From a virus, in IMG/VR virus record IMGVR_UViG_3300025030_000006: 64,000 bases of DNA. One strand, given 5' to 3'. A program made the position numbers and the translations under genes. This document shows, one piece after another, positions 3,848 through 32,882 of the stretch (its first letter is position 1; the number at the start of each line of letters is the position of its first letter). Below the pieces are notes generated by a model, which was not told the DNA's origin, did no database searches, and worked only from the letters and a program-made list of their open reading frames with translations.

Positions 3848-4520
3848 TATTTAATTCCTTTTCATCAATGTATGTTCTATCATCTTTTCTTATTTGCCAC
3901 CATGCAGCTGCACCATATTTTCTAAACCAGTCTCTTCCCTTTACCCAAAATTTACCTTTAGCAGAACAAACAACGTGGATAAACTCTTCTTGTGAAGCAC
4001 AAATGAAATTATTATTTTCATCATATTGGTTTACCCATACTTTTTTAATTCCATCCACGATAACAATATGGTCTGTTCCTTTAAACATAAGTTTCTCATC
4101 ATAAGGACCAGTACCACTCATTGATATACTTGTTAAAATAACCCAACCACTTCTCAATAAACCTTCTATTCTATCAGTATATTCCCTTGCAGGTTCAAAA
4201 TGATAAAAATTAGGATTGAATCTGCTTGTATAAAAATTAGGAAGAACACAATCAGTATAAATATCAACGGTTCTATCATTTTGGTGATTGCACAAAGCAT
4301 AAAAAGCAAAATGGTAAAAATCCCATGAATTACATAAATGTCCTTGCTTATCTTTAAATGCCTCAAAGACCTCATCAAAGGTTACTTTGTTTTCTGGAAA
4401 TAAATAATTGATTGCAGCAGTAGTGGCACAAGCAAAACAATCCCCACCGGGATTTTTCTTTGGGTAGGGTTGTAAATGTGGTTCAATGTTTAGACAGAAT
4501 TCCATTTTATTGTTCCTCAC
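3840..4520 (-). CDS. papain-like/C39-like cysteine peptidase-like protein (tentative)
   Basis: Track ORF. The N-terminal GGDCFACATTAAINY resembles a catalytic-Cys helix. Overlaps both flanking genes. Confidence 0.45.
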   Translation of the reverse strand: MRNNKMEFCLNIEPHLQPYPKKNPGGDCFACATTAAINYLFPENKVTFDEVFEAFKDKQGHLCNSWDFYHFAFYALCNHQNDRTVDIYTDCVLPNFYTSRFNPNFYHFEPAREYTDRIEGLLRSGWVILTSISMSGTGPYDEKLMFKGTDHIVIVDGIKKVWVNQYDENNNFICASQEEFIHVVCSAKGKFWVKGRDWFRKYGAAAWWQIRKDDRTYIDEKELNNE

Positions 4521-5097
4521 ATATTTGGTTTTTAGAAAAAATAGTTCTTACATAAGTATCTTCAAACCATTCACGTTCTTTTTTATCAAAACATAATCCC
4601 CATTTTTCTTTTATCATTATCCAAAGAATTCTGTATTCTACTCTATTAATCAATGGCATCCAATCAGACGGGTTTTTAGCTCCCTTTTCCCGATTACTCT
4701 TGGCTGTGACTGCAATTAAATGATTTGGGTCAGCAAGATAATTTGCATACTCAATACGTCTTTCCTGACTCCATTTATCAGCGCCAGAAATCCATGCTTC
4801 TTTTAAAGGAATAAAATGGTCTATATCCAATTCAGAAGGATTTGTAATAATACTTCCGGTATATCTGCAAATCCAGATTCCCCATTCTACTTTTCCATTT
4901 TTATCAAATCGAACAGGAATAATACTTTCCTCAATTAGAACTTCCTGCCTTGTGTCCCTCCCGTTGTTATCGGTGTCAATCCAGCCATTACCAAAATGCT
5001 TTTCCCTATTATATTTCTCCGCAAAACAAATTCCAAAACTTAATAAAGTAATAACTAAACAGGAAATTAATATTCTCATTATTCTTCTCCTTAACAA
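4507..5097 (-). CDS. secreted DUF1524/His-Me-finger type nuclease
   Basis: Track ORF. N-terminal signal-like segment ILISCLVITLLSFGICFA. DIDHFIPLKEAW...NHLIAVTAKSNREKGAKNPSDW matches my recollection of the DUF1524 (GmrSD C-terminal) motif. Confidence 0.7.
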   Translation of the reverse strand: MLRRRIMRILISCLVITLLSFGICFAEKYNREKHFGNGWIDTDNNGRDTRQEVLIEESIIPVRFDKNGKVEWGIWICRYTGSIITNPSELDIDHFIPLKEAWISGADKWSQERRIEYANYLADPNHLIAVTAKSNREKGAKNPSDWMPLINRVEYRILWIMIKEKWGLCFDKKEREWFEDTYVRTIFSKNQICEEQ

Positions 5098-5267
5098 TCC
5101 GTATTTTTCTCTTCCGGTAATTCATAATACATGGCAATCGAAGCACACTCTTCATCTGTATATTCTCCTTCCAAATCATCGGAGAAACAACATGGAATAA
5201 AAGGAGTTTGTAATTTAGGTTCCTGAAAAGGTTCAGAATACCAATAACGAGATTCACTAACACACAT
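5091..5267 (-). CDS. small highly acidic protein (58 aa), possible nuclease partner or inhibitor
   Basis: Translated by eye: MCVSESRYWYSEPFQEPKLQ...EEKNTDC. GGAG lies 9 nt upstream of the ATG. Overlaps the nuclease start codon. The track ORF 5009..5281 is in a different frame. Confidence 0.45.
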   Translation of the reverse strand: MCVSESRYWYSEPFQEPKLQTPFIPCCFSDDLEGEYTDEECASIAMYYELPEEKNTDC

Positions 5268-5290
5268 TTAATTTTCTCCAAAATAATAAA

Positions 5291-5575
5291 TCAATTATTT
5301 TCTGCATAAAAGTCATCCCATTTTTGTTTGTATTTTTGCCACGGACCCGTAGCACGTTCATTGTTTCAAGAACTGCAAGCAATTTGTAAATTCAAAAAAT
5401 GCCAGTTTCCCCCCAAGGATAATGGATGAAGATGTTCAATCGTTGCCAAATGAAAGGGTAATTTTTCTCGGCAATAGAAACATGGTGCTTTTTTTCTCGA
5501 ACCATATTTTTTAAAAAGTTTCTTTTTGATTTCCTTTTTCTGACTGCTATTTCTTGCACTGGAAAACTGACTCAT
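5291..5575 (-). CDS. HNH endonuclease with in-frame TGA (5366..5368) at the expected Cys of the C-x-x-C-N motif; either a pseudogene or a UGA-readthrough/selenocysteine candidate
   Basis: Track ORF 5366..5575 reads CFYC...TIEHLHPLSLGG...NLQIACSS*. The frame stays open for 24 more codons (NNERATGPWQKY...) to the stop at 5291..5293. Confidence 0.55.
5338..5353 (-). promoter_or_regulatory. SECIS-like hairpin GCUACG-GGUC-CGUGGC, +16..+31 from the U of UGA
   Basis: 6-bp stem with one G.U pair and a GGUC tetraloop at +22..+25. GC-rich in an AT-rich context. Confidence 0.4.
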
Positions 5576-5608
5576 AAGGATATGTCCTCCTTATAATAAA
5601 ATTAATTT

Positions 5609-21374: not shown

Positions 21375-21466
21375 GGGGTAGTGGCGAAGCTGGTTGAAAC
21401 GCAACGGTCTTAAAAACCGTTACTGATAAGTTCACACCGTCGGTTCGATTCCGACCTACCCCACCA
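21375..21466 (+). tRNA. tRNA-Leu(UAA): tRNA-Leu (anticodon UAA), class II with a long variable arm and encoded CCA
   Basis: Acceptor GGGGTAG/CTACCCC. Anticodon stem ACGGT/ACCGT with loop CTTAAAA. T-arm GTCGG-TTCGATT-CCGAC. ACCA at the 3' end. Confidence 0.85.
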
Positions 21467-22140: not shown

Positions 22141-23805
22141 ATGTCTTTCTATTTTGAATTTCCCTCCATAGAAAGAAAATCAAAAACTAATTTTGATTGC
22201 AACAAATGCACTTTAAAGAATAATAAAATTCAATCCCCAGAAATGCAAATGTATGTTGGAGAACAATACGAAGGATTAATTATTTTAGGAAACAAAGCAT
22301 CAAAACATGATGATGAAAAGGGATTTCCTTTTGCTGATTCCCGTTCAAAAATATTGAGAAGTACAGCCGCAAAATTCAGAATTAATTTATCAAAACAAGC
22401 CGCAATGCTTCATGCTGTTTCCTGCTATAACCCTACCAAAAAGAAAACTTCTGATACACATTTTAAATGCTGTCAAAGTATTTTAGATGCACGTCTTAAA
22501 GAATTACGTCCTAAATTGATTATCTGTTGTGGTGAATTGGCTTTTAAATATATTTTTGGGTTGAAAAACAAATATGCCATTTCAAAATTAAGAAACAGAA
22601 TCATTCCTAATTACCAATACAACTGTCTGGTTTTTCCTGTTTACGACCCTTATAATTATGAAATGTATAACACCAGAAAAGAAGAGGAAGAACTAAGTTA
22701 TTATTACGAACATGCTTATAAATGGGACTTACAAAGAATATTTGAATTATGGGATAAGAAATTTCATAAAAGAACGGAGGTCAACAAAGTTCTGAAAGAA
22801 AGAAAAATTCTTGAGAATATTGAAATAAAAGAAGTAACTGATTTCCATGAAGCCAAGGAATTATTCAGACTTTGGAATAAATCTAAAGCCATTTGCCTTG
22901 ACTATGAAACCACTAATTTGTTTCCTTATGATAATCATTTTGAAATTGTTTATGCTGCCTTTGGAAATAAAACAAATGCTTGGGTTTTCCATGAAGATTT
23001 TTGGAAAGATAATCCATTCGTAAAGATTTGGTTCAAACGTCAAATGCAAAGGATTCTGGTTAATCAGAAAGTATTGAAAGTAGTTCAGAACAGCAAGTTT
23101 GAAGATTTATGTTCTAGGTTTGTTTATGGAATAAAAGAAATAAAGAATTCATTTTGTACCATGCTGGCGCAACACGTAATTGATGAAAGAGAAGGATGTA
23201 CTTCATTGGATTTCCAGAATTTAATACGGTTTGGAATTCCTCCTTATAATGAAACCATAAAGAAATATTTGATAACGGATAAGAAAGCCAAGGAAATTGA
23301 ATCGGATGATTCAGAAGATGAGATGGAAGAAATCATTGAATTGGATGAAGCAAAAGCATATACGTTTCAGAAAGTAAATAAAATCAGAGAAGCACCAAAA
23401 CAAGATATGATTCAATACAACGGCCTTGACGTTATTACAGCATTTAATCAGTGGGTTTTATTTGAAAAAGATTTGTTGGATTCCTATCCTAAAGCCAGAG
23501 AGAATTACGAATTCTTGAATGAAGGTCATTGGTTGTTTGCCAGAATGAGTCAAAGAGGAGTTAATATTGGTGAACAGGAATTAAAAGATTTTGAATTGTT
23601 CTTGGAAAAAGAAATTGAAAGAATAGAAAAGAAAATAATGGAGATACCGGAAATTCAAGAATATAACAAGCATTTGGAATCAAAAAGTTCAAAGACAAAG
23701 AAGAAAAAGAATGATAAGCAATTGGAAGATTTATGTTTTTCTAAACCTAAAAAGATTCGGTTGATTAATAGAAAATTTGATTTTACGGAAGGAGAAGAGA
23801 AATGA
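22141..23805 (+). CDS. family A DNA polymerase, N-terminal fragment: UDG-family-4-like domain, 3'-5' exonuclease and start of the polymerase domain
   Basis: The first ~170 aa resemble a family-4 UDG fold (GNKASKHDDEKGFPFADSRSKIL; FPVYDPYNY). ExoI-like motif ICLDYETTNL. Ends ..KKIRLINRKFDFTEGEEK at a TGA. Confidence 0.75.
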   Translation: MSFYFEFPSIERKSKTNFDCNKCTLKNNKIQSPEMQMYVGEQYEGLIILGNKASKHDDEKGFPFADSRSKILRSTAAKFRINLSKQAAMLHAVSCYNPTKKKTSDTHFKCCQSILDARLKELRPKLIICCGELAFKYIFGLKNKYAISKLRNRIIPNYQYNCLVFPVYDPYNYEMYNTRKEEEELSYYYEHAYKWDLQRIFELWDKKFHKRTEVNKVLKERKILENIEIKEVTDFHEAKELFRLWNKSKAICLDYETTNLFPYDNHFEIVYAAFGNKTNAWVFHEDFWKDNPFVKIWFKRQMQRILVNQKVLKVVQNSKFEDLCSRFVYGIKEIKNSFCTMLAQHVIDEREGCTSLDFQNLIRFGIPPYNETIKKYLITDKKAKEIESDDSEDEMEEIIELDEAKAYTFQKVNKIREAPKQDMIQYNGLDVITAFNQWVLFEKDLLDSYPKARENYEFLNEGHWLFARMSQRGVNIGEQELKDFELFLEKEIERIEKKIMEIPEIQEYNKHLESKSSKTKKKKNDKQLEDLCFSKPKKIRLINRKFDFTEGEEK

Positions 23806-24053
23806 TATTAATTATGAATATATTGGTTATCGTTTTTACCATCTTTGTTTTTGGTTACTGTATTGGTTGGGTTTTTTGCAATAGAGAATGGCGTTGGTAT
23901 GCAAAATATAATGTACCTCACAGGCATAAAGGAAATTGGTATTTTGTAGAAAAGGAAAACAATGACAAAAAAGAAAGCACACCCTATAAAGAATTAAATG
24001 AAGCTCTTAATAGAATGGATGCAAAATTAAAGGAGAAGAGAAATGATAATTAG
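23802..24053 (+). CDS. small membrane protein, between the polymerase fragments
   Basis: Track ORF. ATGA overlap with the upstream stop. N-terminal hydrophobic helix. Confidence 0.5.
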   Translation: MILIMNILVIVFTIFVFGYCIGWVFCNREWRWYAKYNVPHRHKGNWYFVEKENNDKKESTPYKELNEALNRMDAKLKEKRNDN

Positions 24054-24276
24054 TAAAGATATTACTGAAAAAATTATTATTGGTGAAGGTTTTACAGATG
24101 AAGAATTAAATAAAGCAATAAATTTTTATTCTAATTTATGTGATTCTATTAAATGTCTTGGAATACGTTATGATTTGGTTTTTTGTGATTTATTTCACAC
24201 ACTGGATAATTTGCAATCAATTAGATATTTTAGGGAGAAAAGAAATGAACAAGAGCAAATATGTAAAAGGATATAA
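24043..24276 (+). CDS. hypothetical small protein, between the polymerase fragments
   Basis: Track ORF. AAAGGAGAAGAGAAATG RBS. Confidence 0.5.
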   Translation: MIISKDITEKIIIGEGFTDEELNKAINFYSNLCDSIKCLGIRYDLVFCDLFHTLDNLQSIRYFREKRNEQEQICKRI

Positions 24277-24619
24277 TGACAGATATACCCATTTGGGTTT
24301 GGCAAAAATTGAAGAATTATTGAAAAATCATAAAGTTCCAATTGATTTGAAAATTGAAGATGTTTATGCAAGAGCAGATGTAATGGTAAAAGAAATAAAT
24401 AAAAATCTCCCCAATAATACAAAACAATTTAAACGTGGTCAATTGTTAGAACATATTTCTTGGAATGAATATGGATTTTATAAATGGAATGCCTTGAAAG
24501 CATTGCTTATGAGTAGAGAGAAATTGAGGGAACAAAGAGAAAAAGAAAAGAATAAAAATTTTGCAAAGAATTATGGTAAACAGGTTAATAAAATTAGTGA
24601 AGCAATTCATGGAGTATAG
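24245..24619 (+). CDS. hypothetical protein, between the polymerase fragments
   Basis: Track ORF 24140..24619, trimmed to the ATG after the TAGGGAGAAAAGAA RBS. Confidence 0.5.
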   Translation: MNKSKYVKGYNDRYTHLGLAKIEELLKNHKVPIDLKIEDVYARADVMVKEINKNLPNNTKQFKRGQLLEHISWNEYGFYKWNALKALLMSREKLREQREKEKNKNFAKNYGKQVNKISEAIHGV

Positions 24620-24625
24620 AATAAA

Positions 24626-26038
24626 ATGGATATGTTATTCAATACCCAAAGTAATATGCAGCTTCAGGAGTTTTTATATGAATTCCTAGAATTGAAACCA
24701 CCAAGGGCAAAGAATGATAAAGGTAATTATTCGGTAGCAGAAGAAATATTAATTCATCATGCAGAGAAAGATGAAGTTGAATTCTGCAAATTACTGTTGA
24801 ATATACGTAAATTGAAAAAAGCAAGAAATACTTATGCAAGGGGATTTAGAAGATATAAGGATGAATTGGAAGGAATGATTCATCCTGATTTTTGGCTTAA
24901 CACAACAAAAACTTATCGGAGTTCTTCATCAAACCCAAATTTTCAGAATTTGCCAAAACACGGTGAAATTATTCCCGGTATTGAGTGGCAAACGATTCGT
25001 AAAATATTCACCAGAAAATTATTAATTGAAAAGATAAAAGCTGGAGAAATAGAATTTACAATTCAAAATGGATTCATTGGTGAAGTTGACTATGTTGGTG
25101 CTGAAGTTAAAGTTGCCGCCGCTGAAGCAGACGATGAACAATTGATTACTGATTTAAATAATGGATTCGACCAACACTCACATTGGGCTGGCGTTTTATT
25201 CGGAATCAATAAAGCAATTGAGGAAATAAAAAAGATACACACTGAAGAAAGATTCCTTGCAAAGAATAACTTTACCTTTGCCAATCTCTTTGGTGCTGGC
25301 AATACTTCAATTGCGGAGGAAATGCGTAAAAGTGAATTCTACGTTGAATTTGTAAGAAAAGCATTTGAAAAAGCAAGACAATCAAAGGGGTTTAAATCCT
25401 CATGGAATGATTTTTTTAAAGAGTATTCGGAACAACATATTCAGGAATGTCAAAATGTTTTTTATGACCGATATAAAGATGTAAAAGCATGGCAAGAATG
25501 GGTAGTAAAAAAATATTATGACGTTGGCTATGTAGAGAACAAATTTGGGTTTAGAAGAAGATACCCAATGAAGCGTAATGAAATAATTAATTTTCCAATA
25601 CAGTCAACAAGTTTTCATTTACTCCTTCATTCATTGATTGAAATTGAAAAGAAAATGGAACAATTGGATTTACAATCTAAATTGGTTGGTCAGATTCATG
25701 ACTCTGGATTTTTTAATATTGTGAGAAGAGAAGCAGAACAGGTTATGGATTTAATTGAATATGAAATGACTCACAAATCATTTGATTGGCTTAAAAAAAT
25801 TAACCTAGAAGCTGAATTCGAGTTGTCTGATGATAGCTGGTACAATTTGAAATTGGAAAATAAATGGTTTGAAGCAAAACATATTAAATCAGAAGAAGTA
25901 TTTAGAGAAAAATTCCTGCATGGATTTACAACTGATATAGGAATGGATGTTGATTTAATTGCAAAGATTCTGGCAGGGAAAAAGGACAAGGAAGGTAATC
26001 TGTATAAACTAGAAAATTGGTCTTTTTCCTATATTTGA
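24626..26038 (+). CDS. family A DNA polymerase, C-terminal fragment (thumb/palm/fingers)
   Basis: Contains FNTQSNMQLQEFL and SSSNPNFQNLP. Motif A VDYVGAEVKVAA, motif B RFLAKNNFTFANLFGAG, motif C QIHDS. Confidence 0.85.
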   Translation: MDMLFNTQSNMQLQEFLYEFLELKPPRAKNDKGNYSVAEEILIHHAEKDEVEFCKLLLNIRKLKKARNTYARGFRRYKDELEGMIHPDFWLNTTKTYRSSSSNPNFQNLPKHGEIIPGIEWQTIRKIFTRKLLIEKIKAGEIEFTIQNGFIGEVDYVGAEVKVAAAEADDEQLITDLNNGFDQHSHWAGVLFGINKAIEEIKKIHTEERFLAKNNFTFANLFGAGNTSIAEEMRKSEFYVEFVRKAFEKARQSKGFKSSWNDFFKEYSEQHIQECQNVFYDRYKDVKAWQEWVVKKYYDVGYVENKFGFRRRYPMKRNEIINFPIQSTSFHLLLHSLIEIEKKMEQLDLQSKLVGQIHDSGFFNIVRREAEQVMDLIEYEMTHKSFDWLKKINLEAEFELSDDSWYNLKLENKWFEAKHIKSEEVFREKFLHGFTTDIGMDVDLIAKILAGKKDKEGNLYKLENWSFSYI

Positions 26039-27648: not shown

Positions 27649-28602
27649 ATGCAAATTACAAACTATCTTAGGGCTGGTTATGCTTCTGTTTTTTGTGAGG
27701 CAATTGAAATTAAACGCTGTGTTAAATCCATTTCAGTTGATTTGCCATTTGAGAAATTGGAATGGGACTTTGTAACAGGATTGGAAGTTAATAAACAAAA
27801 GGAAGAAGCCAATCAAGTTGAAATTCTTAACAAGGCAACTGAATTACAACAAAAGGCAATCATTCTGGAAAACTTTGATTTGTTTCTGGAAAACCCCATT
27901 ATTATGCAAACATTCCTGAATAATTATGAAACATATAAATCCAATCAGGTTTGTTTGGTAATGGTAGGAAATTCCTCATCCAAGATTCCCGTTATTTTAA
28001 AAGAACTGATTCCTGTAATTGAGTTCAATCTTCCCAATAAAGAAGAAATCAGGAAGATTGCAGAAATTATTTCCACCACAGCGGAAGAAGATTTTAAACA
28101 ATCCAAAGATTATGATAAGAATAAAAAGGAATTCGATTTCCATGTATCTGAAGAATTGATTTCCGCTTGTCTAGGATTAAGTCATGAAGAGGTTGAAAGC
28201 ATTTTAGCCCTGTCGCTCATTGAACATAAAAAATTGGATACAAAAACAGTCTTAGAAAGAAAAAGGCAAGTAATAAGACAAACTGGATTTATGGATTTTA
28301 TAAACCCAGAACCAATAGAAAATTTAGGAGGGTTAGATAAATTAAAAGAGTATATTTTTAAAAGAAAAGAAGCGTTTATTGAGGGAAGTATAAAACCAAA
28401 AATAAAATCAATGGTGATGGCCGGTTTTCCCGGAACAGGTAAAACGATGGCCGCAAAGGCAATTATTTCTATTTTTGATTGGCCAGGAATAATTCTTGAC
28501 GTAGGTTCTTTAAAAGGTGGAATCGTTGGTGAAACAGAAAAAAATGTAAGACATGCCTGCAAAACAATTGACGCTTTTGGAAGATGTATTGTAATACTGG
28601 AT
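27649..28602 (+). CDS. AAA+ ATPase, exon 1 (N-domain, Walker A, Walker B through ..VILD)
   Basis: Walker A GFPGTGKT. The coding sense ends at ..CIVILD|. The track ORF runs 4 codons into the intron. Confidence 0.8.
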
Positions 28603-28837
28603 AAACAAATCTAATCTTGTTCAGTATAAATCCCCTTAATTGCTGGAAACCCCTTAGAGCCAATTGAACTACAACGTAGCTGGAAACGGCAAGCGTGAAT
28701 GTTTGAAAATCAATTGGATTGGGCAATCAGCAGCCAAGTGCCTTTAAAATGGTGAAGGTTCAGAGACTATCCCGTAAGGGAGTAGGATTCAAGTGAATCC
28801 GAAATGGGGGACAAATAACAAAAATTCCTTTATTTTC

Positions 28838-28866
28838 TTGACTTCATAAATTCTCTATCCTATATT
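28838..28866 (+). promoter_or_regulatory. sigma70-like promoter inside the intron, upstream of the HNH ORF
   Basis: cTTGACT, 17 nt, TATATT. Lies 47 nt upstream of the HNH ATG. Confidence 0.45.
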
Positions 28867-28912
28867 CTTAAAATAAGTTTTCAGCACAAAATAGGACAAG
28901 GGAGATTTTATT

Positions 28913-29500
28913 ATGTGGTCCAAGAAACGTGGTAGATGCAAAGGGTGCCGTTCTATTCGTTACCGTCATCAAGCAAAGGGATTATGCACAAAATGTTATT
29001 TAGAAAAATATCGTAATAACCCACAAAACAAAGAAAAAAGCAAGAAACACAAAAGTGAATGGCTTAAAAAACAACCAAAAGAATATGGCAAAATGCGTAG
29101 AGAACAACTACATTTTGGTGGTAAAAGAGAATTAGCTTTAGAAAGAGATAATTATACTTGTCAAAAATGTGGGGAAAAAGATATTCCTAAATTAACTGTG
29201 CATCATATTGATGGTAATGGTAGAAAGCATAAAACACCAAACAATAAACTTAGTAATTTGCAAACTTTATGCAGAACATGTCACATTAAAATCCACAAGT
29301 ATGATTTAGTAAAAGGAAGAAGAACAATAAAAAGTGGATTTTGGAGCAAACACCATGATTTATGCAAAGTTTGCGAAACAACCGAAAGAAAACATTATGC
29401 TTTGGGCCTTTGTGTCTTATGCTACAAAAGGGTAGTTAGAAAAGCCAAAAAGGAAGGCTTGTTATTTGAAGATATAGTCCGAACTTATGAGAAATCATAA
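28913..29500 (+). CDS. intron-encoded HNH homing-endonuclease-like protein
   Basis: Contains CQKCGEKDIPKLTVHHIDGNG...NLQTLCRTCHIKIH. AGGGAG RBS. The 3' end overlaps intron core element S. Confidence 0.8.
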   Translation: MWSKKRGRCKGCRSIRYRHQAKGLCTKCYLEKYRNNPQNKEKSKKHKSEWLKKQPKEYGKMRREQLHFGGKRELALERDNYTCQKCGEKDIPKLTVHHIDGNGRKHKTPNNKLSNLQTLCRTCHIKIHKYDLVKGRRTIKSGFWSKHHDLCKVCETTERKHYALGLCVLCYKRVVRKAKKEGLLFEDIVRTYEKS

Positions 29501-29537
29501 GAGGAATAATGGAAACGATTATTCCAAAACAAAAAAG

Positions 29538-30074
29538 GAGATTGAAAAAGCCTTTGCAGGTGCGTCCGGTCAAAATCTTGATTCTGGTGTAAGTCAAGGG
29601 ATGTTGGGTTATTTTTTAACATGGATGCAAGAGCGTAAATCAGAAGGAATTGTTATTGCTACTGCAAATGATTTATCAAAATTACCTCCAGAATTTCTTC
29701 GTGCTGGTAGGTGGGATTGTATTTGGTTCGTTGATACGCCAAATGAAAATGAAGTAAAAGTTATCATTGAAATTATGAATAGGCGGTATCATTCAAAACT
29801 TCCTACCGATTCCAATTTCTGTAAAGAATTGGCTGAACAACAATGGACTGGTGCTGAAATTGAACAATTGGCTAAAGATTCCCATTTCGATGATTTGGAT
29901 ACGGCAATGAATAATATTCCTTTGCTATCCAGTTTCAGAAAAGAAGAAATGGATGAAATCAGGAAGAAAGCTAAAATGTTTCGTGCTGCCAGTAGTAAAG
30001 GAGAACCAATCAGAAAGAAAATTCAATTGAAAACAAAACCTGTTGCTGCCGGTAGAAAACTGAATCTTCATTGA
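29538..30074 (+). CDS. AAA+ ATPase, exon 2 (Walker B Glu, sensor 1, Arg finger, lid)
   Basis: Contains EIEKAF, IVIATAN and RAGRWD (classical AAA pattern). In frame with exon 1 after intron removal. Confidence 0.8.
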   Translation, partial: EIEKAFAGASGQNLDSGVSQGMLGYFLTWMQERKSEGIVIATANDLSKLPPEFLRAGRWDCIWFVDTPNENEVKVIIEIMNRRYHSKLPTDSNFCKELAEQQWTGAEIEQLAKDSHFDDLDTAMNNIPLLSSFRKEEMDEIRKKAKMFRAASSKGEPIRKKIQLKTKPVAAGRKLNLH

Positions 30075-32336: not shown

Positions 32337-32828
32337 ATGAGTTTAAGTGATTCATTTGATATAAAAGAAAAATATGATGAATATAAAATAGAAGTAGACA
32401 TTGAAACAGCACAAAGGGAATTTTTACCTATAGATATTCAATTTAACACTGTAAAAACCAAATACAAAATATTTAGTATTGTAGAACCACTTAAATTCAA
32501 TGTGGTGACTAGAAAATTATTAGGCAATTCTGGAGAAATAATTGGACAATCACCAACAACAATTGAAATTGATATAGTTACAAGTGGAACATTCTTTGAT
32601 TCAAATGATATTAAAAATGAAGTTTGTTTAAGTTTTAAAAACAAACAATATGGTTTAATTTATGGATATATAAAGGATACAAAGATAAGTCAGAAAGTAG
32701 GTAGCAATTACGTTTGTCTTGAATTTAAATTTGTTGGTGTGCTTGGTACATATTTTATGGATACAAAGAACGAAGAAGAAATTAAGAAAACAATAAGAAA
32801 AATAAATAGGCGATTTCATTTTGATTGA
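32337..32828 (+). CDS. hypothetical protein ending in KINRRFHFD
   Basis: Track ORF. AAAGGAGGAAATAATG RBS. Confidence 0.6.
   Translation: MSLSDSFDIKEKYDEYKIEVDIETAQREFLPIDIQFNTVKTKYKIFSIVEPLKFNVVTRKLLGNSGEIIGQSPTTIEIDIVTSGTFFDSNDIKNEVCLSFKNKQYGLIYGYIKDTKISQKVGSNYVCLEFKFVGVLGTYFMDTKNEEEIKKTIRKINRRFHFD
32796..32822. repeat. 27-nt exact repeat at the gene 3' end (copy 2)
   Basis: Identical to 32292..32318. Confidence 0.85.
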
Positions 32829-32882
32829 CGAGAAAAAATCCATTGGCTACAATGGAACTTCTTGATTGAAAGGGCACAATTT

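What the first reader, a model, noticed from the sequence alone, without database searches (positions are those of the whole stretch)
5291..5575. In-frame UGA at a conserved Cys of an HNH endonuclease, followed by an fdhF-like SECIS hairpin: candidate phage selenoprotein
The minus-strand ORF 5366..5575 encodes a small HNH/His-Me protein (APCFYC ... TIEHLHPLSLGG ... NLQIACSS). It stops at TGA (5368..5366), exactly where the family's second knuckle normally reads C-x-x-C-N; here it is C-S-S-[TGA]-N-N-E-R.

The same frame stays open for 24 more codons (NNERATGPWQKYKQKWDDFYAENN, stop at 5293..5291). It ends just before the RBS of the next gene, so the apparent 98-nt gap behaves like coding sequence in an otherwise tightly packed operon.

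Counting the U of UGA as +1, nucleotides +16..+31 fold as GCUACG-GGUC-CGUGGC. That is 6 bp including one G.U, an optional U15-A32 pair, and a GGUC tetraloop at +22..+25. As I recall the E. coli fdhF SECIS (UGA CAC GGC CCA UCG GUU GCA GGU CUG CAC C), its SelB-binding apical hairpin has the same loop, G22 G23 U24 C25, at the identical distance.

The stem is built from the codons GCT ACG GGT CCG TGG. ACG and CCG are G-ending codons that look atypical for this AT-rich genome, which suggests selection on RNA structure.

The trivial alternative is a TGY-to-TGA nonsense mutation, making this a pseudogene.
Basis: partly seen in the sequence, partly recalled or inferred. Interest (0 to 1): 0.85.

Follow-up and report, generated by a model that had tools for sequence, protein, structure and literature searches.

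The report
Possible selenocysteine codon in phage HNH nuclease
A conserved nuclease gene of an uncultured groundwater phage has a UGA stop codon exactly where all relatives have a zinc-binding cysteine, followed by an RNA hairpin that closely matches the bacterial signal for inserting selenocysteine; if it is decoded that way it would be the first natural phage selenoprotein, but a simple nonsense mutation is not excluded.

Summary
The minus-strand ORF 5575..5369 is an HNH nuclease. An in-frame TGA (5368..5366) replaces the fourth zinc-ligand Cys, which is invariant in all relatives inspected. The frame stays open for 24 conserved codons. A 7-bp hairpin with a GGUC loop sits at +15..+32, with G23/U24 at the same positions as in E. 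coli fdhF, fdnG and fdoG.

Evidence for a real signal:
- This is the only GGUC-loop hairpin with a stem of at least 6 bp in the window.
- It depends on three minority codons (CGT, ACG, CCG).
- None of 113 Cys-bearing family genes from IMG/VR has such a hairpin.
- Chance is about 1e-3 to 1e-4.
- The gene keeps its position in four related phage contigs, all with Cys, and the tail shows no decay.
- TGA is otherwise a normal stop, and independent assemblies from several runs agree.

Evidence against:
- There is only one genotype and no second TGA ortholog with a hairpin.
- The bulged U17 needed by E. coli SelB is absent.
- Sec as a structural zinc ligand is unprecedented.
- The host is unknown, and no Sec genes lie in the ~82 kb of phage DNA seen.

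Verdict: selenocysteine recoding ~0.5, recent nonsense allele ~0.33, SelB-independent leaky readthrough ~0.1.

The parts
5586..5590 (-). Shine-Dalgarno GGAGG of the HNH gene. It lies partly inside a 9-bp hairpin (about 5596..5570) that pairs it with the start-codon region.
   Evidence: Sequence read; inverted repeat I3; fold (z-score only -1.1, function not tested).
5369..5575 (-). HNH nuclease ORF, codons 1-69: C32-x-x-C35 knuckle, E47-H48 catalytic His, N62, C67.
   Evidence: ORF; PF14279 E=2e-8, PF01844; alignment to PDB 4H9D, in which C38/C41/C73/C76 bind Zn, PMC3765158.
5366..5368 (-). In-frame TGA at codon 70. This is the column of the fourth Zn-ligand Cys (Cys76 of 4H9D). It is the candidate Sec codon.
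   Evidence: orthologs have TGT/TGT/TGC/TGT and the Cys is invariant in the family members inspected.
5337..5354 (-). Candidate SECIS apical hairpin, +15..+32 from the U of UGA. 5' arm 5354..5348, GGUC loop 5347..5344 (G23=5346, U24=5345), 3' arm 5343..5337. It has 7 bp including one G.U and no bulge.
   Evidence: MFE -9.4; unique in the window; synonymous resampling gives the hairpin in 49 of 20000; family nulls; E. coli SECIS comparison.
5294..5365 (-). 24 in-frame codons after the TGA (NNERATGPWQKYKQKWDDFYAENN). They encode the catalytic-metal Asn (N71) and the C-terminal helix of the HNH fold.
   Evidence: +10 bits when included; N71 N72 R74 W79 K83 D87 E92 conserved; tail identity to orthologs 9-11 of 24, against 10-12 of 24 among intact orthologs.
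5291..5293 (-). TGA stop of the extended 94-codon frame, 23 nt before the next gene's ATG (5267).
5091..5267 (-). Next gene of the operon (58 aa), with RBS GGAG at 5279..5276. It sets the lower boundary of the feature.

Best explanation
The HNH gene is a selenoprotein gene of bacterial type.

Proposed mechanism:
- During infection of a host that has SelA, SelB, SelD and tRNA-Sec, the ribosome reaches UGA-70.
- The 7-bp GGUC hairpin 11 nt downstream is then at the mRNA entrance and is bound by host SelB carrying Sec-tRNA-Sec.
- Sec is inserted in place of the fourth zinc-ligand Cys, and translation continues for 24 codons.
- The result is a 94-aa nuclease that has the catalytic Asn and the C-terminal helix.
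- Ribosomes that terminate instead make an inactive 69-aa fragment.
- The UGA would therefore also keep full-length nuclease output low and dependent on the host's selenium supply and Sec machinery.

Shown here: the TGA, its alignment to the Cys column, the conserved downstream frame, the hairpin geometry and its rarity, the minority codons, and normal use of TGA as a stop elsewhere.

Inferred: SelB binding, Sec insertion, a host with Sec machinery, and any regulatory benefit.
For: 1. TGA sits at an invariant Cys. Orthologs carry TGT/TGT/TGC/TGT. All 24 inspected representatives have C-x-x-C-N. The column equals Zn ligand Cys76 of 4H9D (PMC3765158).
2. The downstream frame is open and conserved as well as between intact orthologs. 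Pfam scores rise by 10 bits when it is included.
3. The hairpin meets the published general bacterial criteria. There are 18 nt between UGA and the loop, within 16-37 (PMC10778597). The stem has 7 bp, within 6-8, with a conserved G about 20 nt downstream (PMC4605307). It spans +15..+32 with G23 and U24, as in the E. coli minimal SECIS at +15..+31 (PMC8659212).
4. The hairpin is rare. It is unique in the window. 10 of 2691 TGAs meet the E. coli-type descriptor. Family-peptide nulls give 1.1e-3 and 1.5e-4. 0 of 113 real Cys-form family genes meet it, and only 1 of 42 low-GC ones folds as stably.
5. The pairs depend on minority codons: CGT 13%, ACG 7%, CCG 6%. Synonymous resampling gives the hairpin in 0.25% of draws. 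One pair is G.U, so the structure is specific to the sense-strand RNA.
6. The four Cys orthologs lack a G/U-loop hairpin at this position.
7. The gene keeps its position in four related phage contigs, so it is retained by selection and is not a decaying selfish insert.
8. The TGA is present in every one of 17 contigs from several sequencing runs, which come from sediment and groundwater metagenomes.
9. There is no genome-wide recoding: stop codons are 67 TAA, 33 TGA and 12 TAG, and full-length polA and helicase genes end in TGA.
Against: - There is a single genotype with no sequence variation. Covariation and selection on the tail therefore cannot be tested.
- No other ortholog is truncated at this column.
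- The only other TGA-at-this-Cys HNH found (L172) has no SECIS-like hairpin. This shows that plain nonsense alleles do occur at this codon.
- The bulged U17, which is essential for E. coli SelB, is absent (PMC8659212).
- Known Sec residues are redox or catalytic. A structural Zn-ligand Sec has no precedent that I know of or could find.
- No natural phage selenoprotein appears in the held literature.
- No selA/B/D or tRNA-Sec lies in the window or 18 kb of flanks. The host is unidentified.
- The family's peptide context already favours some hairpin here: a tetraloop at +22 occurs in 1.4% of back-translations. Ortholog L008 has a different 7-bp hairpin.
Confidence: 0.5

Rival explanations
1. This is a recent nonsense allele. 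A single T-to-A change turned TGT into TGA in a gene the phage can do without. The 69-aa product is inactive, the tail has not yet had time to decay, and the hairpin is a coincidence helped by the GC-rich codons of this stretch.
For: - One base separates TGA from the orthologs' TGT.
- There is only one genotype and no second Sec-form.
- A second HNH with TGA at the same Cys but no SECIS-like hairpin exists (L172), so such alleles do arise.
- The phage carries several other HNH or homing-type nucleases that could compensate.
- The family context raises the hairpin odds, and L008 and L007 fold to -7.0 kcal/mol here.
- There is no bulged U17, and Sec as a Zn ligand is unprecedented.
Against: - It requires a coincidence of about 1e-3 to 1e-4: the E. 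coli-type hairpin in exactly the right register, built from three minority codons.
- It also requires the stop to fall on one of four Cys codons. By my own estimate, not computed, a few dozen codons in the gene could mutate to a stop in one step.
- The gene is conserved in position in all relatives.
- The tail shows no excess divergence, indel or stop.
- The allele is fixed in all assemblies from both sample types, sediment and groundwater.
Confidence: 0.33
2. This is programmed or tolerated leaky UGA readthrough without SelB. A near-cognate tRNA (Trp or Cys) occasionally reads UGA, perhaps helped by the hairpin at the mRNA entrance. That gives a small amount of full-length nuclease, much as phage Q-beta makes its A1 protein. 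The stop would act as an expression attenuator for a potentially toxic nuclease.
For: - The downstream frame is conserved.
- The hairpin begins 11 nt after the stop.
- The gene also has a hairpin over its SD and start codon, which hints at tight down-regulation.
- This reading needs no Sec machinery, which suits an unknown host.
- Q-beta UGA readthrough is a phage precedent (my own knowledge).
Against: - Trp, the usual insertion at UGA in bacteria, would destroy the fourth Zn ligand.
- Hairpin-stimulated readthrough is not an established bacterial mechanism.
- This reading does not explain why the loop is GGUC with G23/U24 in the SelB register.
Confidence: 0.1
3. TGA is a sense codon in this phage or its host (genetic code 4 or 25), or a phage suppressor tRNA reads it.
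For: The genome is AT-rich (30.9% GC) and comes from a site rich in candidate-phyla bacteria, some of which use TGA as Gly (my own knowledge). About 16 kb of the genome was not seen.
Against: - 33 of 112 ORFs end in TGA, including polA, a helicase and UDG-exo that have full domain coverage.
- Treating TGA as coding does not merge real genes.
- The only tRNA found is Leu(UAA).
- Gly or Trp would not fit an invariant Cys column.
Confidence: 0.02
4. The TGA is a sequencing or assembly error.
For: None specific.
Against: The 69-aa ORF is identical on 17 contigs from independent assemblies and assemblers (MEGAHIT-style contig names, Logan, JGI and ANAN16 scaffolds) across several runs. The loci compared cover the region at 100% identity. 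No 94-aa near-identical variant exists in the protein collection.
Confidence: 0.01

Closest known systems
E. coli fdhF (and fdnG/fdoG) UGA-SECIS selenocysteine recoding
   Same: In-frame UGA at a Cys-homologous position. An apical hairpin starts 11 nt after the UGA and spans about +15..+31. G23 and U24 lie in the loop. The GGUC tetraloop is identical to that of fdhF (PMC8659212).
   Different: There is no bulged U17/U18. The stem is 7 perfect pairs, one of them G.U. There is no lower helix. The setting is a phage gene, not a host oxidoreductase. The residue replaced is a structural Zn ligand, not a catalytic one. No Sec-form orthologs are known.
Minimal 5/6-bp SECIS hairpins of Epsilonproteobacteria and the general bacterial SECIS consensus
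   Same: A short hairpin a few nucleotides after the TGA with an invariant G in the loop (PMC4607533). A 6-8 bp stem with a conserved G about 20 nt downstream (PMC4605307). 16-37 nt from UGA to the loop (PMC10778597).
   Different: Those elements are supported by covariation across many orthologs. Here there is a single sequence.
Gmet_0936 HNH endonuclease (PDB 4H9D) and phage [CxxC]2 HNH nucleases
   Same: Same fold family (phmmer E=1.8e-5, residues 8-82). The Zn site is made of Cys38/41/73/76, and the window's C32, C35, C67 and TGA-70 align to these (PMC3765158, PMC3592412).
   Different: The fourth ligand codon is TGA. The window protein belongs to a small (~90-120 aa) subfamily with an N-terminal RNSxQKKxxKKxLF motif.
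Phage Q-beta A1 protein (leaky UGA readthrough)
   Same: A phage ORF in which a UGA must be read through to make a C-terminally extended functional product.
   Different: In Q-beta the stop follows a complete coat protein and Trp is inserted. Here the stop interrupts a single domain at a Cys ligand and is followed by a SelB-type hairpin. This comparison rests on my own knowledge.
Selenoproteins of eukaryotic viruses
   Same: A viral gene that uses the host Sec machinery at a UGA. PMC8310308 states that a few viruses redefine UGA as Sec.
   Different: Those use eukaryotic 3'-UTR SECIS elements and encode redox enzymes. No bacteriophage case was found in the held literature.

Membership tests
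Bacterial selenoprotein gene (UGA + SECIS) | In-frame UGA with the coding frame continuing on both sides | tested here: met
   74 open codons upstream and 24 downstream. The tail is conserved with orthologs.
Bacterial selenoprotein gene (UGA + SECIS) | Cys-containing homologs align at the UGA | tested here: met
   TGT/TGT/TGC/TGT in four orthologs. Cys in all 24 inspected representatives and, by the pattern used, in at least 120 IMG/VR family genes.
Bacterial selenoprotein gene (UGA + SECIS) | Hairpin directly downstream: 16-37 nt from UGA to the apical loop, 6-8 bp stem, conserved G in the loop about 20 nt downstream | tested here: met
   18 nt to the loop, 7 bp, G22/G23 at 19-20 nt, dG -9.4. 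Criteria taken from PMC10778597 and PMC4605307.
Bacterial selenoprotein gene (UGA + SECIS) | Sec-form orthologs in other genomes with a conserved or covarying SECIS | tested here: not met
   No other member truncated at this column was found in 1.84 billion representatives, the profile search at 90% clusters or IMG/VR. All copies are one genotype.
Bacterial selenoprotein gene (UGA + SECIS) | selA, selB, selC (tRNA-Sec) and selD available in the host or the phage | not testable with these tools
   None in the window or 18 kb of flanks. About 16 kb of the phage was not seen. The host was not identified.
Bacterial selenoprotein gene (UGA + SECIS) | Selenium actually incorporated (75Se labelling or mass spectrometry) | not testable with these tools
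   Experimental.
E. coli fdhF-type minimal SECIS | 17-nt hairpin at nt 15-31, 11 nt from the UGA | tested here: met
   The hairpin runs +15..+32. Definition from PMC8659212. E. coli sequences were verified.
E. coli fdhF-type minimal SECIS | G23 and U24 in the apical loop | tested here: met
   Loop G22 G23 U24 C25 = window 5347..5344.
E. coli fdhF-type minimal SECIS | Bulged U17 (a SelB contact; its mutation abolishes readthrough in E. coli) | tested here: not met
   C17 pairs with G30 and U18 pairs with G29. No bulge appears in the MFE or centroid fold. Requirement from PMC8659212. The element is therefore not a strict member of the E. coli type.
HNH (beta-beta-alpha-Me) nuclease with a [CxxC]2 zinc site | Pfam HNH/HNH_5 above the gathering score | tested here: met
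   PF14279 34.3 bits (cut-off 27.5) for the 69 aa and 44.3 bits with the tail. PF01844 22.9 and 32.9 bits (cut-off 21.4).
HNH (beta-beta-alpha-Me) nuclease with a [CxxC]2 zinc site | Four Cys ligands and the catalytic His...Asn...Asn | tested here: inconclusive
   C32, C35, C67, H48 and N62 are present. The fourth ligand is the TGA, and N71 lies beyond it. The set is complete only if the TGA is decoded.
Stop-codon reassignment (code 4 or 25) | TGA not used as a terminator; many genes interrupted by TGA | tested here: not met
   33 of 112 ORFs end in TGA, including full-length polA, helicase and UDG-exo. No other TGA-interrupted conserved gene was found.

The most novel reading that the evidence does not exclude
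A bacteriophage encodes a selenoprotein. It borrows the host's SelB and tRNA-Sec through a minimal SECIS hairpin to insert selenocysteine as the fourth ligand of the structural zinc site of an HNH nuclease. Production of active nuclease would then be gated by the host's Sec machinery and selenium status. This would be the first natural phage selenoprotein and the first Sec that replaces a structural rather than a redox or catalytic Cys.
Probability: 0.45. Interest if true: 0.85.

Novelty: new variant of a known kind. Interest (0 to 1): 0.7.

Why it matters
Selenocysteine recoding is known in cells and in a few eukaryotic viruses, but I found no natural bacteriophage example. Gene callers silently truncate such genes, so phage selenoproteins could be systematically overlooked.

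A confirmed case would show three things:
- Phages can exploit host SelB and tRNA-Sec.
- There is a new way to couple expression of a phage nuclease to host physiology or host range.
- Sec can be used as a zinc ligand, outside the redox or catalytic roles that define known selenoproteins.

It would also provide a compact natural SECIS (7 bp, no bulge) inside ordinary coding sequence, which is useful for engineering. If the gene is only a nonsense allele, it is a cautionary example of how closely chance can imitate a SECIS.

Tried and rejected
- **Genome-wide TGA recoding:** rejected. Stop usage is 67 TAA, 33 TGA and 12 TAG, and full-length genes end in TGA.
- **Suppressor tRNA or tRNA-Sec in the phage:** only tRNA-Leu(UAA) was found in the window, and nothing in 18 kb of flanks.
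- **Rfam:** no match at the site. No bacterial SECIS model matched, and I believe Rfam has none, so this result is uninformative.
- **Terminator reading of the hairpin:** rejected. There is no T-run and the terminator scan does not call it.
- **Other Sec candidates in the phage:** 69 TGA sites with long frames on both sides were screened. The next best hairpin (TGA 32826) is an intergenic hairpin between two genes with no Cys relation.
- **More relatives:**
  - The first metagenome scan was swamped by A-rich patterns.
  - A CFYC..ATIEHL DNA pattern found only distant high-GC HNH genes, all with Cys.
  - Searches of IMG/VR for TGA at this codon gave none with the strict pattern and one unrelated HNH (L172) with the loose pattern.
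- **Host identification:**
  - polA is only about 25% identical to polymerases of cultured phages, mostly of Firmicutes.
  - The GT9 glycosyltransferase has no match in phages or GTDB genomes.
  - The helicase has no match in GTDB genomes.
  - The endolysin is TIGR02594-type and widespread. The few named homologs are from Gram-negative bacteria, which gives no further resolution.
- **Walking to the unseen 16 kb:** the phage is not in IMG/VR, and look-ups are restricted to proteins encoded in the window.
- **Covariance model from the E. coli SECIS elements:** considered and not built. Two distinct sequences that share fdh coding constraints would not generalise.
- **In-frame TAG between 24140..24619 and the polA domain ORF:** the upstream ORF has no polymerase similarity. 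This is adjacency, not recoding.

Full report
**1. What is there**

The window is 30.9% GC and is part of an uncultured phage of about 98.5 kb. The phage was recovered repeatedly from aquifer sediment and groundwater metagenomes.

It carries a replication and nucleotide-metabolism module:
- a UDG-exonuclease ORF and a separate PolA domain ORF;
- DnaB-like and DEAD helicases, a primase and a RecA-like protein;
- ThyX, dUTPase and a 5'-3' exonuclease;
- a CHAP/TIGR02594 endolysin and a GT9 glycosyltransferase.

On the minus strand, ATG 5575 opens a 69-codon ORF that ends at TGA 5368..5366. The same frame runs 24 more codons to TGA 5293..5291. The next gene starts at 5267 behind its own GGAG.

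**2. The protein**

The 69 aa hit HNH_5 and HNH above Pfam's thresholds. Adding the tail, with Cys at the stop, raises both scores by 10 bits, and 24 PHROG families, most annotated as HNH endonucleases, match.

The nearest solved structure is Gmet_0936 (4H9D). Its zinc is held by Cys38, Cys41, Cys73 and Cys76 (PMC3765158). In the alignment, the window's C32, C35 and C67 and the TGA fall on those four residues, and N71 follows as in the C-x-x-C-N motif. The 69-aa product therefore lacks one zinc ligand, the catalytic-metal Asn and the final helix. It should be inactive.

**3. Relatives**

- Only three protein clusters are close, plus one IMG/VR locus and P0004.
- All four orthologs read TGT, TGT, TGC and TGT at the TGA column. 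All share the tail pattern C-N-N-x-R...W..[YF]K..[WFY][DE].
- They sit in the same gene order: orf86, HNH, a small ORF, a GmrSD_C-like nuclease, orf226, orf92. This is a vertically inherited, retained gene, not a decaying mobile insert.
- The window's tail is as similar to the orthologs (9-11 of 24 residues) as intact orthologs are to each other (10-12 of 24).
- An exhaustive profile search gave 10,945 family members at E<=1e-3. In the top 150, only the window's own protein ends at that column. The 24 sequences inspected all have the Cys.
- A profile search of the collection clustered at 90% identity found no other truncated form among 75 hits.
- In IMG/VR, a strict family DNA pattern with TGY at this codon matched at least 120 contigs. 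The same pattern with TGA matched none.
- A looser pattern found one unrelated HNH (L172) with TGA at the same Cys and an intact downstream frame. Its downstream structure is not SECIS-like: a 7-nt AAGACAA loop only 13 nt from the UGA, z-score -0.55. Plain nonsense alleles at this codon therefore do occur, rarely.

**4. The hairpin**

- **Fold.** RNAfold puts U15-A32 through G21-C26 around the loop G22 G23 U24 C25, at -9.4 kcal/mol.
- **E. coli comparison.** fdnG and fdoG were read from MG1655. All three put G23 and U24 in the loop of a hairpin that starts at G15. That is the published minimal element: nt 15-31, 11 nt from the UGA (PMC8659212).
- **General criteria.** All are met: 16-37 nt from UGA to loop (PMC10778597); a 6-8 bp stem with a conserved G about 20 nt downstream (PMC4605307); a 5/6-bp hairpin with an invariant loop G in Epsilonproteobacteria (PMC4607533).
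- **What is missing.** There is no bulged U17, which E. coli SelB requires (PMC8659212). The element is fdhF-like in register and loop, but it is not a strict member of the E. coli type.

**5. Is the hairpin chance?**

| Test | Result |
|---|---|
| Hairpins with a stem of at least 6 bp and a GGTC tetraloop, both strands of the window | 1 (this one) |
| TGAs meeting the E. coli-type descriptor | 10 of 2691; only this one has long frames on both sides |
| TGAs passing a very loose rule | 4.3% |
| Synonymous resampling of this peptide that gives the hairpin | 0.25% |
| Family tails back-translated with this phage's codon usage: tetraloop at +22 | 1.4% |
| Same null, plus G23/U24 | 1.5e-4 |
| Same null, E. 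coli-type descriptor | 1.1e-3 |
| 113 real Cys-form family genes meeting the descriptor | 0 |
| 42 low-GC genes among those folding to -9.4 kcal/mol or lower | 1 |

- **Codons.** The stem uses CGT (13% of Arg), ACG (7% of Thr) and CCG (6% of Pro).
- **Local context.** The family null shows that the peptide context favours some structure at this spot.
- **Orthologs.** They fold to -7.0, -7.0, -4.0 and -0.8 kcal/mol here, with different shapes and no G/U loop.
- **Conclusion.** My estimate of chance is 1e-3 to 1e-4. That is not negligible given how many genes exist, but it is strong for one pre-specified site.

**6. Alternatives excluded**

- **Genome-wide recoding.** Excluded: TGA ends 33 of 112 ORFs, including full-length polA and helicase.
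- **Sequencing error.** Excluded: the ORF is identical on 17 contigs from independent assemblies. No near-identical 94-aa form exists.
- **Terminator.** Excluded.
- **Suppressor tRNA or tRNA-Sec.** None in the window or 18 kb of flanks. About 16 kb of the phage remains unseen.

**7. Weighing**

- **For Sec:** the stop falls on an invariant Cys; the frame is preserved; the gene is retained by selection; and the one TGA-bearing lineage is also the one with a SelB-register GGUC hairpin built from rare codons.
- **Against Sec:** there is a single genotype with no covariation and no second Sec-form; U17 is absent; the chemical role would be unprecedented; the host is unknown; and L172 is a reminder that nonsense alleles occur.
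- **Host clues:** only a TIGR02594-type endolysin whose few named homologs are from Gram-negative bacteria, a heptosyltransferase-family gene, strong SD use and low GC. Both scans of GTDB genomes were empty.
- **Probabilities:** I put Sec recoding at about 0.5, a recent nonsense allele at about 0.33, SelB-independent leaky readthrough at about 0.1, and the rest on other causes.

**8. Novelty**

- **Mechanism.** It would be the known bacterial one.
- **What would be new.** The phage setting and a Sec in a structural zinc site.
- **Literature.** No paper in the held library reports a natural phage selenoprotein or an HNH selenoprotein.
- **Label.** For these reasons I label it 'new variant of a known kind'.
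- **Next.** Section the next steps lists the read-level, host-level and reporter tests that would settle it.

Noticed in passing
L172:1-240 (minus strand; TGA at about 46-48), IMGVR_UViG_3300047297_000015: An unrelated phage HNH (…CYWCG…VDHIVPVAKGG…NLVAACKK*NFSKQDKLPDEF) also has TGA at the fourth zinc-ligand Cys, with the frame continuing to the contig end. Its downstream structure is not SECIS-like. It is probably a plain nonsense allele or an error, but it is the only other case found.
   Followed up: partly
window 27649-30074 (+): An AAA ATPase appears split. ORF 27649..28614 matches Pfam AAA positions 1-64 and ORF 29487..30074 matches positions 70-129. A 195-aa HNH ORF (28913..29500) lies between them. 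This looks like a homing-endonuclease or intron-type insertion.
   Followed up: no
window 22141-26038 (+): The family A DNA polymerase is in pieces. A UDG plus 3'-5' exonuclease ORF (22141..23805) comes first, then two small ORFs with no family match, then the polymerase domain ORF (24626..26038). ORF 24140..24619 ends in TAG in the same frame as the polymerase ORF. It has no polymerase similarity, so this looks like adjacency rather than recoding.
   Followed up: partly
window 5570-5596 (-): A 9-bp hairpin (UUAUAAGGA / UCCUUAUGA) pairs part of the HNH gene's Shine-Dalgarno sequence with its start-codon region. It may hold down translation of the nuclease. The fold z-score is only -1.1.
   Followed up: partly
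window 4507-5097 (-): A GmrSD_C (DUF1524-like) nuclease-domain protein with a hydrophobic, signal-like N-terminus lies two genes downstream of the HNH. It keeps that position in all related phage contigs (55-72% identity). The two nucleases may work together.
   Followed up: partly
L008:3211-3240 (Cys-form ortholog, IMGVR_UViG_3300037722_000807): The ortholog with TGC has its own 7-bp hairpin (AACGGGG-AAAC-UCCUGUU, loop at +18..+21, -7.0 kcal/mol) in the same stretch. Back-translated family peptides form a tetraloop hairpin at +22 in 1.4% of draws. The region seems predisposed to structure, which could be the raw material for a SECIS.
   Followed up: partly
window 21375-21466 (+): This is the single tRNA gene, Leu(UAA). 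It has a long variable arm and an encoded CCA end, and it overlaps an antisense 153-aa ORF call. It probably supplies UUA decoding for this AT-rich genome.
   Followed up: no
window 32826-32860 (+): A 7-bp hairpin (UCCAUUG-GCUA-CAAUGGA) follows directly after the TGA stop of ORF 32337..32828, in the gap before the next gene (likely ATG 32884). It is probably a regulatory or stabilising intergenic hairpin. It is not a Sec candidate.
   Followed up: partly
L013:942-5939 versus L014:3565-5973; L015:5706-7250 versus L016:819-2361: Strain variants of the same phage are more than 99.8% identical elsewhere but differ in a very large ORF (1665 aa versus 802 aa) and in a GT2+GT9 glycosyltransferase (514 aa versus 415 + 90 aa). 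This suggests variable tail-fibre or surface-modification cassettes.
   Followed up: no
L015:1-385 (-), upstream of the window: An 860-aa protein with an intein signature (Hom_end_hint, Hom_end) lies about 9 kb before the window start. The 98.5-kb contig ends where the window continues, which suggests a circularly permuted or terminally redundant genome.
   Followed up: no
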